DNA of 64,000 bases from Candidatus Calditenuis fumarioli (lineage in GTDB: Archaea > Thermoproteota > Nitrososphaeria_A > Caldarchaeales > Calditenuaceae). Each line of letters begins with the position of its first letter. Position 1 is the first letter of the stretch. The translations under genes were made by a program, and so were the position numbers. The notes beneath the pieces were generated by a model. That model was not told the DNA's origin, searched no databases, and worked only from the letters and a program-made list of their open reading frames with translations. The stretch covers positions 256,001 to 320,000 of the forward strand of contig JANVYR010000001.1 in the NCBI GenBank assembly GCA_030059665.1. Reading direction: 5' to 3'. Positions 1,540 through 4,768 of this stretch are shown piece by piece.

Positions 1540-2757
1540 GTGCAGCCCGCCAGGCGCGTCGAGCTCCAGAGGGGCCAGACGCTGCTGATGAAGGGCCCTG
1601 CTTCGGCGAGGTGCGTGGCCGGTAGCGTGGACGTCTTCGGGTACAGGCCCACGTCCCGGGAGCTGATGGTGGCGAGGCCCTGGAAGACGCTGCCGATCCA
1701 CGCGCTCGAGGACTCGGTGCTCGAGGTCAGTGCCGGACCGGGGAGCTCGACGGAGCTGCTGGACTTCGACGCGATCCCCAGGGAGTGGAGGGAGCTGCCG
1801 GAGAAACTCGGTAAAGAGTTCAGGGTCGCGTTCCTCGGCCGGGTCGACTCGGGCAAGACCTCGTTCCTCCTGCTCTCCCTGAACAGCAGGGTTGGAGAGG
1901 GTCCGGTGACGGTGGTAGATCTGGACGTCGGCCAGCCGGAGCTCTGCCCTCCCACGACCTTCGCCGTGGCAGAGGCGCGCGCACCCACCTACAGGCTCTC
2001 CTCCGTGAACGCGGCTGCCGTGTACCCCTTCGGGTTCACCTCGCCCTCCTACGCGATCTCGCGGTCCGTGGAGCTGATCAGGAGGCACATGGGCCGCCTC
2101 GCGGAGTCGGAAAGGGTCCTGCTGAACCTGGACGGGTGGGTGGACGGTGAGGAGGCCCTACACCACAAGGCCTCCATCGTCAGGGCCCTGAGGCCGACCG
2201 ACGTGGTCGCGATCGAGGCAGAGGTGTCCGGGGAGCTGCGGGAGGCCTGCGACGAGGTCGGCGCGGAGGTCCACCGGGTCGAGCGTCCCCCAACGGTCCC
2301 CAGGAGGGACAAGGAGGAGAGGAAGCGGGCAAGGGAGATGGGCTACGCGTCGGCGTTGAGGGGTGCCTCGCTGCGCCAGACGGTCAAGTCCTGGGTGACT
2401 TACTACCCGGTCAACTCGGACGACCCCATCCGCGATCCCGAGCTGTACCTGCTTGAGGTGATGAAGGACATCGAGACGAGGAGCCTGGACATCGGTCTGG
2501 ACCTGCCGGAGGATTACGGAACCGAGCCTGACCTCGGCAGAGCAGGTGCGGGCCTGCTTTCGTACGTGACCGACGAGGAGGGGAAGGTCCTGGGGCTGGC
2601 GCTGCTGGTGGGGTTCTCCAGGGAGAGGAACCTGGTGAGGCTGCTCACCAACCACCAGGGACCGATCCGGCACCTCAGGCTGGGGGCCGTGGTCCTCTCG
2701 CAGGGGTTCGAGGAGCTCTGCGTCGTGAGCCCGCCGGCTCTCAGGACCGGGAGCTGA
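1540..2757 (+). CDS. Clp1/Nol9-family polynucleotide 5'-OH kinase
   Basis: Walker A GRVDSGKTS, DLDVGQ motif, LNLDGWV motif. Confidence 0.85.
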   Translation: MQPARRVELQRGQTLLMKGPASARCVAGSVDVFGYRPTSRELMVARPWKTLPIHALEDSVLEVSAGPGSSTELLDFDAIPREWRELPEKLGKEFRVAFLGRVDSGKTSFLLLSLNSRVGEGPVTVVDLDVGQPELCPPTTFAVAEARAPTYRLSSVNAAAVYPFGFTSPSYAISRSVELIRRHMGRLAESERVLLNLDGWVDGEEALHHKASIVRALRPTDVVAIEAEVSGELREACDEVGAEVHRVERPPTVPRRDKEERKRAREMGYASALRGASLRQTVKSWVTYYPVNSDDPIRDPELYLLEVMKDIETRSLDIGLDLPEDYGTEPDLGRAGAGLLSYVTDEEGKVLGLALLVGFSRERNLVRLLTNHQGPIRHLRLGAVVLSQGFEELCVVSPPALRTGS

Positions 2758-3199
2758 GACCGGTGCCCTCCTCCACTATCTCCATCGGCTCCTGCTCGAA
2801 CCTCCGCAGGACTCCGTCCAGCCTCCAGGCGGCAATACCCCTCACCTCATTCCCCGAGACGGAGGCGATCACGTAGGTGAACCCAGGGAAAGCGTGCTCC
2901 AGGTCGTAGGCGCTCGGTATCGCCGGGTAGTCCGGGTGGCTGTGGAAGACGCCGATGACGATCCGGCCCCTCTGGGCCTCCTCCCTCTCCACCGCCATGT
3001 ACTCAAGGGGGTCTATCGAGTACCTCGTCCGGCGGGTTCCGTTGAAGGCGTTCCTCATGGGCACCACCCGCTCCACCACCCTCACGCCGTCGACGACCCT
3101 CCCCACCAGCAGCCCGCACCCCTCCTCTGGGTATGCCCTGATCAGGTGGTTCAGCATCTCGTCGAGGAGGCGTCTCGGGATCCGGATCATCCGGTTCAC
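2741..3199 (-). CDS. JAMM/MPN+ (Mov34) metalloprotease, desampylase/Mec-like
   Basis: EEGCGLLVG plus HSHPDYPAIPSAYD (HxH-x7-S-x2-D). Confidence 0.9.
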   Translation of the reverse strand: MNRMIRIPRRLLDEMLNHLIRAYPEEGCGLLVGRVVDGVRVVERVVPMRNAFNGTRRTRYSIDPLEYMAVEREEAQRGRIVIGVFHSHPDYPAIPSAYDLEHAFPGFTYVIASVSGNEVRGIAAWRLDGVLRRFEQEPMEIVEEGTGLSSRS

Positions 3200-3316: not shown

Positions 3317-3610
3317 ATGATACAGGGTCTCGAGTGGGTCATCGTCCTCGTCGTGGTACTGGTGCTGTTCCTCTGGGGTCCCGAGAAGCTGCCCAAACTG
3401 GCTAGGGCCGTGGGGCAGGCCAAGAGGGAGTTCGAGAAGGCGAGCAGGGAGGTCCAGGAGGAGCTGACGAGACCGTCCGCTGAAACCTCTCGGGCCGGTG
3501 GTTCCAACGATATAATCCAGATCGCGAGGTCCCTCGGGATCGAGACCGAGGGGAAGACCAGGGAGCAGATAGCCGACGAGATCGCTGCCAAGCTGAAGAA
3601 GGCAACGTAG
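3317..3610 (+). CDS. tatA: Twin-arginine translocase TatA/E subunit
   Basis: N-terminal TM, WGPEKLPKLARAVGQAKREF hinge and amphipathic helix. Confidence 0.9.
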   Translation: MIQGLEWVIVLVVVLVLFLWGPEKLPKLARAVGQAKREFEKASREVQEELTRPSAETSRAGGSNDIIQIARSLGIETEGKTREQIADEIAAKLKKAT

Positions 3611-3613
3611 GCC

Positions 3614-3865
3614 ATGCTCTCTCCGCTCGAGCTAGTGTTCATCGTGGCCGTCATCGCGTTCCTTTGGGTGCTGCTGAAGCCAGACGTCATCGTGAAGTGG
3701 GCCCGCGGTCTGGGGAGGCTAGCGGGTGAGGTGAGGAGGGGCCAGGAGGAGGACGACCTCATCCGGGTCGCAAGGGAGCTGGGGATCGAGACGGAGGGCA
3801 AGGAAAGAGGGGAGATCCTCGAGGAAGTGGAGAGGAGGCTCAGGTCCAGCTCTAAAGGGGCCTGA
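3614..3865 (+). CDS. Second TatA/E-like paralog
   Basis: TM plus amphipathic helix (WARGLGRLAGEVRR); shares the LGIETEGK C-terminal motif with the upstream gene. Confidence 0.75.
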   Translation: MLSPLELVFIVAVIAFLWVLLKPDVIVKWARGLGRLAGEVRRGQEEDDLIRVARELGIETEGKERGEILEEVERRLRSSSKGA

Positions 3866-3869
3866 AAGG

Positions 3870-3892
3870 AAAAAATCCGAACGGGTGTTTTG
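3870..3892. terminator. Probable bidirectional T-tract terminator between convergent tat and basic-protein genes
   Basis: A6 at 3870-3875 (T6 on -) and TTTT at about 3888-3891 on +. Confidence 0.4.
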
Positions 3893-3907
3893 GCCGTTCT
3901 CCTCAGC

Positions 3908-4093
3908 TCAGCCGGTCGGCGTCGGCGGCTTCTCGGCAGGTGCCTTCTCCGCTGGCGGCTTCTCTGCCTTGGCGACCTTCTTGGCAGCCTTCTTCACCGC
4001 TCTCTTGGCGCCCTTCGCAGCCTTCTTGGCTCCCTTCTTAGCAGCCCTTCCCATCTTCTTCCCACCCTTCTTCGCAGACTTCTTGGCGGGCAT
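3908..4093 (-). CDS. Small Lys/Ala-rich basic protein, histone H1 tail-like
   Basis: 61 aa with 20 Lys (all AAG) and 16 Ala; GGTGA RBS 3 nt before ATG; AT-rich/TATA element upstream; T-tract downstream. Confidence 0.8.
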   Translation of the reverse strand: MPAKKSAKKGGKKMGRAAKKGAKKAAKGAKRAVKKAAKKVAKAEKPPAEKAPAEKPPTPTG

Positions 4094-4162
4094 CGTTCAC
4101 CACTCACGATTTATTGTAAAACATTGGTATAAGAATCTTCTGCAACGCGCGGTGAATGTGGA

Positions 4163-4768
4163 ATGAGGTTCGGTGTGCTGGTGCTGGCAGCTGGGGGATC
4201 CACCAGGATGAGGGGCAGGTTCAAGCTGCTGGAGGACCTCGGGGGCAGGCCGGTGGTCAGGTGGGCAGTGGAGGCGGCGATGGGTTCAGGCTGCAGGCCC
4301 GTGATGGTCGTGCTCGGAGCCAGGGCGGAGGAGGTGAGGAGGGTGCTTCCTGAAACGGTCGAGGTCGTGGTGAACGAGGCCTGGCGTGAGGGGATGTCCA
4401 GCAGCATCAGGGCCGGCGTGGGATCGCTGCCTCCTGGAACCGGTGGGGTCGTGATTTGCCTCGGTGACATGCCCTTCGTCACGCCGGGGACCATCGATCG
4501 ACTGGCTTCGGCCGCAGCCGAGCACGGGATAGCCTACTGCAGGTCGGGCGAAGAGGTGAGGAGCCCATCCGCGTTCAGGTCCGAGTTCTTCGGAGATCTC
4601 CTCCGGCTGAGGGGTGACGCGGGCGCCAAGGACGTGATCAGGCGGAACCCCAGCAGGGCGGTTGGTGTCGATGTGGACCCGGTGGAGCTGCTGGACGTAG
4701 ACACCGAGGAGGAGCTTGAGGCCGCAAGGAGGATAGCACAGGAAAGGGGACTGGGGTGGAAAAGATAG
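4163..4768 (+). CDS. mocA: Molybdenum cofactor cytidylyltransferase/NTP-transferase (MocA-like)
   Basis: VLAAGGSTRM...KLL, GMSSSIRAG, LGDMP, GDAGAK and DVDT motifs. Confidence 0.85.
   Translation: MRFGVLVLAAGGSTRMRGRFKLLEDLGGRPVVRWAVEAAMGSGCRPVMVVLGARAEEVRRVLPETVEVVVNEAWREGMSSSIRAGVGSLPPGTGGVVICLGDMPFVTPGTIDRLASAAAEHGIAYCRSGEEVRSPSAFRSEFFGDLLRLRGDAGAKDVIRRNPSRAVGVDVDPVELLDVDTEEELEAARRIAQERGLGWKR

What the first reader, a model, noticed from the sequence alone, without database searches (positions are those of the whole stretch)
3908..4093. Histone-H1-tail-like basic protein in an archaeon
MPAKKSAKKGGKKMGRAAKKGAKKAAKGAKRAVKKAAKKVAKAEKPPAEKAPAEKPPTPTG: one third Lys, AKK repeats, then three AEK(P/A)P units. 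All 20 Lys codons are AAG, and there is a GGTGA RBS, an upstream TATA and a downstream T-tract, so it looks like a real, probably well-expressed gene. Composition resembles the eukaryotic H1 C-tail, chlamydial Hc1/Hc2 and Pseudomonas AlgP. A linker-histone-like or DNA-condensing factor of this type is not an established archaeal chromatin component to my knowledge.
Basis: partly seen in the sequence, partly recalled or inferred. Interest (0 to 1): 0.75.

Follow-up and report, generated by a model that had tools for sequence, protein, structure and literature searches.

The report
Tiny lysine-rich protein of hot-spring archaea
A real gene, missing from the large protein collections I searched, encodes a 61-residue floppy protein that is one third lysine; it is conserved across an order of hot-spring archaea (Aigarchaeota) and most likely coats DNA or RNA by charge like the tail of histone H1, but this is untested.

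Summary
Window 3908-4093 (minus strand) is a 61-codon ORF with 20 Lys, all AAG, a GGTGA, an upstream TATA-like box, and a hairpin plus T-tract behind it. It is the only lysine-rich stretch in the 1.57-Mb genome.

It is a true gene. I found counterparts in 41 genomes of the order (Candidatus Calditenuis and kin, Caldarchaeales):
- all 7 genomes of the genus;
- 11 of 12 other genomes of the family;
- 18 of 18 in a second family;
- 5 genera of a third family.

Only the lysine frame is open in all 39 copies tested. pN/pS is 0.12. Promoter and terminator keep their positions.

All copies share one plan:
- a start of MPAKK or a close variant;
- a Lys/Ala head of 20-46 residues, net +11 to +26;
- a 9-21-residue Pro/Ala/Glu tail.

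No copy has a hydrophobic core, and lengths run from 34 to 87 residues. No Pfam, NCBIfam, PDB or 1.8-billion-protein match exists.

It is not a member of the H1, Hc1/Hc2 or AlgP families, but it probably works like them as a disordered polycation on nucleic acid. A chromatin role is plausible because 75 of 76 genomes have a histone. That role is inferred only.

This scan noted similar lysine micro-genes before, in DPANN, Thorarchaeota and CPR bacteria.

The parts
3908..4093 (-). Coding sequence, 61 codons plus TGA stop, of the lysine-rich microprotein
   Evidence: The frame is open in 39 of 39 orthologues. pN/pS is 0.12.
3959..4093 (-). Basic head, residues 1-45: MPAKK start, then AKK/GKK repeats, net charge +19
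   Evidence: AlphaFold2 gives one low-confidence helix over residues 3-44. Degenerate 12- and 33-nt tandem repeats.
3911..3958 (-). Pro/Ala/Glu/Lys tail, residues 46-61, net charge 0, with three AEKxP units
   Evidence: Every family member has a P/A/E tail of 9-21 residues.
4097..4101 (-). GGTGA Shine-Dalgarno-like element, 3 nt before the ATG
   Evidence: GAGTGATGG or GAGG-type elements sit at the same place in relatives.
4128..4140 (-). TATA-like box TTCTTATA (4128-4135) with purine-rich BRE-like bases just upstream. It lies about 39 nt before the ATG, implying a leader of about 10-15 nt.
   Evidence: Invariant in the three closest genomes. A TATA-like box lies 34-44 nt upstream in 39 of 39 members. 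CTTATA and TTATAC are enriched 8-10 fold in upstream regions of this genome.
3870..3899 (-). Terminator-like hairpin (3879-3899) and T6 run (3870-3875) on the coding strand
   Evidence: The T-run is conserved. A run of at least 5 T lies within 70 nt downstream in 33 of 39 members, against 4 of 39 on the other strand.

Best explanation
This is a genuine, independently transcribed gene for an intrinsically disordered polycationic microprotein. It has a Lys/Ala head and a short Pro/Ala/Glu tail, and it is conserved across the Caldarchaeales (Aigarchaeota).

Shown here: it is coding, under purifying selection, always a single-gene unit with a canonical archaeal BRE/TATA promoter and an oligo-T terminator, and free of any fold-forming residues.

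Inferred: the head binds polyanions without sequence specificity, by charge alone. The most likely target is chromosomal DNA or histone chromatin in these thermophiles. There it would neutralise phosphate charge and so compact, bridge or heat-stabilise DNA, as the H1 C-terminal domain and the domain-less H1-like proteins of bacteria, kinetoplastids and Toxoplasma do. The head may become helical on binding. The conserved uncharged tail probably stays free, as a spacer or a docking peptide.
For: Real gene:
- Orthologues at conserved positions in 41 genomes.
- The lysine frame is open in 39 of 39. The other frames are open in 1 to 36 of 39.
- pN/pS is 0.12 in the lysine frame, 0.20 in the antisense frame that shares its wobble positions, and above 2 in the other frames.
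- Conserved ATG, a TATA-like box 34-44 nt upstream, and a sense-strand T-run downstream.
- Two families of the order share the promoter CCGAAAATTTTTTAT.

Polycation without a fold:
- Composition is K 31%, A 28%, P 13%, with no L, F, W, Y, C, H, D or N. Net charge is +9 to +24.
- Lengths of 34-87 residues arise by repeat gain and loss.
- AlphaFold2 gives pLDDT 63 and pTM 0.30, a single low-confidence helix. The ESM Atlas model has pLDDT 0.56.

Chromatin plausibility:
- It is a stand-alone gene, as known archaeal nucleoid proteins usually are (PMC7613761).
- A histone is present in 75 of 76 genomes of the order.
- Its own genome has two Alba genes and no detectable Cren7.
- Domain-less H1-like proteins condense DNA and phase-separate (PMC11062459), and one acts as a linker histone in Toxoplasma (PMC9769792).
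- Lysine-rich disordered ends contact DNA non-specifically in archaeal Rpo13 (PMC3479171).
Against: - There is no transcript, peptide or binding data.
- There is no sequence homology to any DNA-binding family.
- Composition alone cannot tell DNA from rRNA, mRNA or other polyanions.
- Gene neighbours differ between families of the order and give no functional hint. The gene sits beside a MobA-like gene in one family and is convergent with a membrane-protein gene in the others.
- The conserved neutral tail has no counterpart in H1 tails and hints at a specific partner that I could not identify.
Confidence: 0.5

Rival explanations
1. RNA- or ribosome-associated polycation. The protein binds rRNA or other RNA, as an accessory or loosely bound ribosomal protein, a biogenesis or hibernation factor, or an RNA chaperone in thermophiles.
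For: Tiny, very basic, stand-alone genes with strong promoters are typical of small ribosomal proteins. The nearest structural look-alike in the ESM Atlas is the Lys/Ala-rich N-extension of eukaryotic uL23, which is a weak, low-complexity match. The Toxoplasma H1-like protein also accumulates in the nucleolus with ribosomal proteins (PMC9769792).
Against: Length varies 2.5-fold, and repeats come and go even within a genus. That is unlike stoichiometric ribosomal proteins with fixed rRNA contacts. There are no aromatic residues, Arg makes up only 4.6% of residues, and no ribosomal family matches.
Confidence: 0.22
2. Docked subunit or tether of a specific machine. The conserved Pro/Ala/Glu tail binds a partner such as RNA polymerase, a topoisomerase, the histone or Alba, and the lysine head gives that partner an unspecific grip on DNA, as in Rpo13.
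For: The tail is conserved in length (median 15 residues) and composition across three families while the head drifts. Rpo13 is a precedent for a small archaeal protein with a lysine-rich disordered end on a machine (PMC3479171).
Against: The tail has low complexity and no invariant residue. No gene is consistently linked across families. The helix-turn-helix core of Rpo13 is lacking.
Confidence: 0.12
3. Binder of another polyanion, such as polyphosphate granules, as for Pseudomonas AlgP.
For: AlgP is an H1-like Lys/Ala/Pro protein that localises to polyphosphate granules (PMC9239181).
Against: No PPK1 or PPK2 was found in this genome, which is 91% complete. Other routes to polyphosphate are not excluded.
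Confidence: 0.05
4. Not a protein-coding gene. Either it is a chance ORF in GC-rich repetitive DNA, or the hydrophobic antisense ORF (3885-4166, plus strand) is the real gene.
For: Two antisense frames are also open in this window. The antisense frame that shares wobble positions also shows a low pN/pS of 0.20. Neither frame is in the 15-billion-protein collection.
Against: The antisense frames carry stops in 3 and 10 of 39 orthologues, while the lysine frame is always open. The ATG, the BRE-to-TATA orientation and the T-run all fit the lysine strand. Indels are always whole codons. The antisense ORF has varying starts that run into the promoter.
Confidence: 0.03

Closest known systems
C-terminal domain of eukaryotic linker histone H1, and the domain-less H1-like proteins of kinetoplastids and Toxoplasma gondii (TgH1-like, 91 aa; PMC9769792)
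   Same: Lys/Ala/Pro-rich, disordered and strongly cationic. It is small, and it coexists with histone-based chromatin.
   Different: No detectable homology and no S/TPKK motifs. It carries a distinct uncharged Pro/Ala/Glu tail. It is archaeal, so it would meet tail-less archaeal histone polymers rather than octameric nucleosomes. No winged-helix domain is present.
Bacterial H1-like proteins: Chlamydia Hc1/Hc2 and Pseudomonas AlgP (PMC2848022, PMC9239181, PMC11062459)
   Same: Low-complexity Lys/Ala(/Pro) repeats whose length varies by repeat slippage. They are thought to act by charge on DNA or polyphosphate and are able to phase-separate.
   Different: This protein is much shorter (34-87 aa against roughly 125-350 aa). 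Pfam HC2 scores only 11 bits against a cut-off of 40, in 1 of 34 members. No polyphosphate kinase was found in this genome.
Rpo13 of Sulfolobales RNA polymerase (PMC3479171)
   Same: A small archaeal protein with a lysine-rich disordered end that touches DNA without sequence specificity.
   Different: Rpo13 has a helix-turn-helix core and a Glu-rich N-end and is a polymerase subunit. The protein here has no core at all.
Candidate nucleoid protein WP_019177984.1 of Methanomassiliicoccus (74 aa, lysine-rich; PMC7613761)
   Same: A small, basic, lysine-rich product of a single-gene unit, proposed as a new archaeal nucleoid protein.
   Different: That protein is predicted to fold (a novel fold) and has bacterial homologues. 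This one is low-complexity and restricted, as far as I searched, to one archaeal order.

Membership tests
Linker histone H1/H5 (Pfam PF00538) | Winged-helix globular domain | tested here: not met
   No Pfam hit at E up to 1 in 34 members. No hydrophobic residues. AlphaFold2 shows no globular fold.
Linker histone H1/H5 (Pfam PF00538) | Lys/Ala/Pro-rich disordered basic domain | tested here: met
   K 31%, A 28%, P 13% over the family, with net charge +9 to +24.
Linker histone H1/H5 (Pfam PF00538) | Binds linker DNA at histone particles | not testable with these tools
   It only co-occurs with a histone gene, in 75 of 76 genomes of the order.
Chlamydial Hc2 (PF07382) and Hc1 | Profile match above the curated cut-off | tested here: not met
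   HC2 at E 0.47 and 11 bits against a cut-off of 40, in 1 of 34 members. No Hc1 hit.
AlgP-type polyphosphate-granule protein | Polyphosphate synthesis in the same cell | tested here: inconclusive
   PPK1 (PF02503) and PPK2 (PF03976) were not found in a 91%-complete genome. Other synthases cannot be excluded.
Archaeal Rpo13 | Helix-turn-helix core flanked by a Glu-rich N-end and a Lys-rich C-end | tested here: not met
   No hydrophobic core residues and no acidic N-end.
Known ribosomal protein families | Match to a curated ribosomal protein model | tested here: not met
   No NCBIfam or Pfam ribosomal model at E up to 1.

The most novel reading that the evidence does not exclude
The Caldarchaeales carry a working analogue of a linker histone. 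This free-standing H1-tail-like polycation would bind the DNA between or around the polymers formed by their single histone and condense chromatin, possibly by phase separation. H1-tail-type chromatin compaction would then exist in histone-bearing TACK archaea, independently of or before eukaryotes.
Probability: 0.12. Interest if true: 0.8.

Novelty: new variant of a known kind. Interest (0 to 1): 0.5.

Why it matters
Archaeal chromatin is described in terms of folded proteins: histones, Alba, Cren7, Sul7d and a few others. A conserved, probably well-transcribed, structure-less polycation found across a whole order would add a component of a different physical kind. Current annotation and homology pipelines miss it. 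It is absent from the 15-billion-protein collection, and profile searches cannot see it. Tryptic proteomics would probably miss it as well, because the head would be cut into very short peptides. It also offers a simple test system for charge-driven DNA compaction or protection at 70-85 °C alongside an archaeal histone.

Tried and rejected
Sequence searches that failed, because the sequence is short and low-complexity, so they do not show absence:
- Word-indexed search of 5.8 billion proteins: no hit.
- Profile search of 1.84 billion representatives: 0 hits.
- PDB: 0 hits.
- The search for related loci on all GTDB species: 600 pattern hits, none confirmed by tblastn.
- The genome search with the protein or a profile missed members already known from synteny.

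What worked was synteny and DNA patterns for the start. A looser KK..KK..KK pattern was noisy but pointed to further copies.

Ideas rejected:
- High expression inferred from AAG usage; it follows from GC bias.
- A functional link to the TatA or MobA neighbours; the neighbours differ between families.
- An Rfam RNA; none found.
- An antisense hydrophobic protein.

Not found:
- In the one genome of the sister genus g2 (88% complete), neither beside its MobA gene nor by pattern.
- Outside the order among about 340 genomes of the phylum. Only the MPAKK..KK start was searched, so this is a weak negative.

In family f2 I saw only two basic-only ORFs of 32-35 aa without the tail. I do not count them as members.

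Full report
**1. Observation**

The minus strand of window 3908-4093 carries an ATG-to-TGA frame of 61 codons. The product has 20 Lys, 16 Ala, 7 Pro, 6 Gly, 3 Glu and 2 Arg. Every Lys codon is AAG, as read.

- GGTGA lies 3 nt before the ATG.
- An AT-rich TTCTTATA lies about 39 nt upstream.
- Downstream there is a 6-bp hairpin, then T6.

The stretch is exceptional for this genome. In all six frames of the 1.57-Mb, 62.5%-GC assembly, nothing else reaches 11 Lys in 40 residues except poly-A contig ends.

The AAG argument for expression is weak. AAG is 86% of Lys codons in long ORFs.

TRF sees degenerate repeats of 12, 15 and 33 nt, so the gene is built from decayed tandem units.

**2. Is it a gene?**

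A protein search of relatives found only two orthologues. Synteny then showed that the search was blind rather than the gene absent.
- All seven genomes of the genus have a 42-61-codon lysine-rich ORF at the same place, between a divergent MobA-like nucleotidyltransferase gene and a convergent pair of TatA-like genes.
- A DNA pattern for the start MPAKK, and walking from neighbour genes, added all 8 genomes of genus g3 and 3 of 3 of g4 in the same family.
- The same approach found it in all 18 genomes of a second family.
- It also found one genome in each of five genera of a third family.
- That makes 41 genomes in all.

The lysine frame is open in 39 of 39 copies tested. The two mostly open antisense frames are broken in 3 and in 10 of them.

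In five close, gap-free pairs there are 52 synonymous against 20 non-synonymous differences. That gives pN/pS of 0.12 in the lysine frame. The antisense frame that shares its wobble positions gives 0.20, as it must, and the other four frames give more than 2.

The signals around the ORF agree:
- Indels are always whole codons.
- A TATA-like box is centred 34-44 nt before the ATG in 39 of 39 copies.
- Its hexamers (CTTATA, TTATAC) belong to the set enriched 8-10 fold upstream of genes in this genome.
- The second and third families even share CCGAAAATTTTTTAT, a textbook BRE plus TATA.
- A run of at least five T follows within 70 nt on the coding strand in 33 of 39 copies, against 4 of 39 on the other strand.

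No Rfam family matches. I take the gene as real, with probability about 0.95.

**3. Who has it?**

ArgG neighbours name the closest records as Candidatus Calditenuis and Calditenuaceae. More distant ones are Candidatus Geocrenenecus. This is the Aigarchaeota, or Caldarchaeales, of hot springs.

The held class equals the order, at 76 genomes. I did not find the gene in the single genome of genus g2, which is 88% complete. In family f2 I saw only two basic-only ORFs of 32-35 codons.

Among about 340 other genomes of the phylum, the MPAKK..KK start pattern gave no member. This is a weak negative, because starts vary even inside the order (MAKKK, MPKAKKK, MARKR).

**4. Anatomy**

The 34-sequence alignment A4 shows one plan:
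- Met, then Pro or Ala, then A(K/R)K.
- A head of 20-46 residues, almost only Lys, Ala, Arg, Gly, Thr and Pro, with net charge +11 to +26.
- A sharp switch, often at KKP, to a tail of 9-21 residues (median 15). The tail is made of Ala, Pro, Glu, Gly, Thr and Gln and has net charge 0 to -3.

Over the family the composition is K 31%, A 28% and P 13%. There is no Leu, Phe, Trp, Tyr, Cys, His, Asp or Asn at all.

AlphaFold2 with this alignment gives one low-confidence helix over residues 3-44 and a coil tail (pLDDT 63, pTM 0.30). The ESM Atlas holds the exact sequence, with a model of pLDDT 0.56. So the protein cannot form a hydrophobic core. It is a disordered polycation that may become helical on a polyanion.

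**5. Context**

The gene is always a single transcription unit. In its own family it sits beside the MobA-like gene.

In the other two families it is convergent with the gene for a polytopic membrane protein of about 190 residues, next to a DNA ligase gene. In this genome that membrane-protein gene lies on another contig.

The neighbours therefore say nothing about function.

The genome has one canonical histone, two Alba genes and no detectable Cren7. A histone is found in 75 of 76 genomes of the order. PPK1 and PPK2 were not found.

**6. Mechanism**

Shown: the product is a conserved, selected, fold-less protein carrying +9 to +24 charges.

Inferred: it binds polyanions by charge. I favour chromosomal DNA, at about 0.5, for four reasons:
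- Known archaeal nucleoid proteins are typically single-gene units (PMC7613761).
- Free-standing H1-like proteins without a globular domain condense DNA and phase-separate (PMC11062459).
- One such protein serves as linker histone in Toxoplasma (PMC9769792).
- Lysine-rich disordered ends of archaeal Rpo13 contact DNA non-specifically (PMC3479171).

In a thermophile, charge neutralisation would also raise duplex stability, much as polyamines do. That last point is inference.

The rapid change of head length fits an unspecific coat better than a stoichiometric structural part. This argues against a ribosomal protein but does not exclude RNA as the target.

The conserved neutral tail is unexplained. 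It may be a spacer or a docking peptide.

**7. Comparison and novelty**

The protein is not a member of the H1, Hc1/Hc2, AlgP, Rpo13 or any ribosomal family. Pfam gives only HC2 at E 0.47 in 1 of 34 members, NCBIfam gives nothing, and PDB gives nothing. It works, I infer, like the H1 C-tail class.

Neither reading frame is in the 15-billion-protein collection, and profile searches find nothing. In my paper searches I found no description of such a protein in archaea.

Earlier notes of this scan report comparable lysine micro-genes in a DPANN archaeon, in Thorarchaeota and in CPR bacteria. I did not test those. They suggest a wider, overlooked class rather than a single oddity.

I rate it a new variant of a known kind, with interest 0.5.

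Noticed in passing
window 3317-3610 (+) and 3614-3865 (+): Two tandem TatA-like genes. The first matches Pfam TatA_B_E (E 2.5e-14). The second has no Pfam hit but has the same build, an N-terminal membrane helix. Both carry a shared motif, (S/E)LGIETEGK followed by an acidic helix, which is unusual for TatA. The pair is conserved in the genus.
   Followed up: partly
window 2741-3199 (-) and 1540-2757 (+): A prokaryotic JAB/MPN metalloprotease gene (Prok-JAB, E 1e-23) overlaps the end of a Clp1-like polynucleotide kinase gene (CLP1_P, E 6e-27). They lie about 0.7 kb from the lysine-rich gene in this genus only.
   Followed up: no
L124 1202-1648 (+) and L230 127-600 (+): In two genera of the third family, a folded domain of about 100 residues (EthD-like by eye) carries a Lys/Arg-rich C-terminal tail of about 45-55 residues. 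This is a separate family from the microprotein.
   Followed up: no
L122 1517-1615 (-) and L123 1489-1596 (+): The one f2 genome inspected has two ORFs of 32-35 codons that are basic throughout and lack the Pro/Ala/Glu tail. They may be degenerate or unrelated relatives of the family.
   Followed up: no
L220 and L226, the ORF starting at base 1501 of the minus-strand reading: A genome elsewhere in the phylum has two copies of a 17-18-codon ORF, MPAKKKKAEQPKPEEKK(Q). It might be another lysine micro-gene.
   Followed up: no
L071-L077 and L029/L030/L055, flanking the microprotein gene: In genera g3 and g4 the gene is followed by a conserved protein of about 260 residues with a coiled-coil-like motif (NRLKNKYAGLEARGKEYFERC). 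I did not identify it.
   Followed up: no
genome contigs C2 and C3, at their ends: Poly-A runs of 20-25 bases at contig ends. They look like assembly or library artefacts.
   Followed up: no
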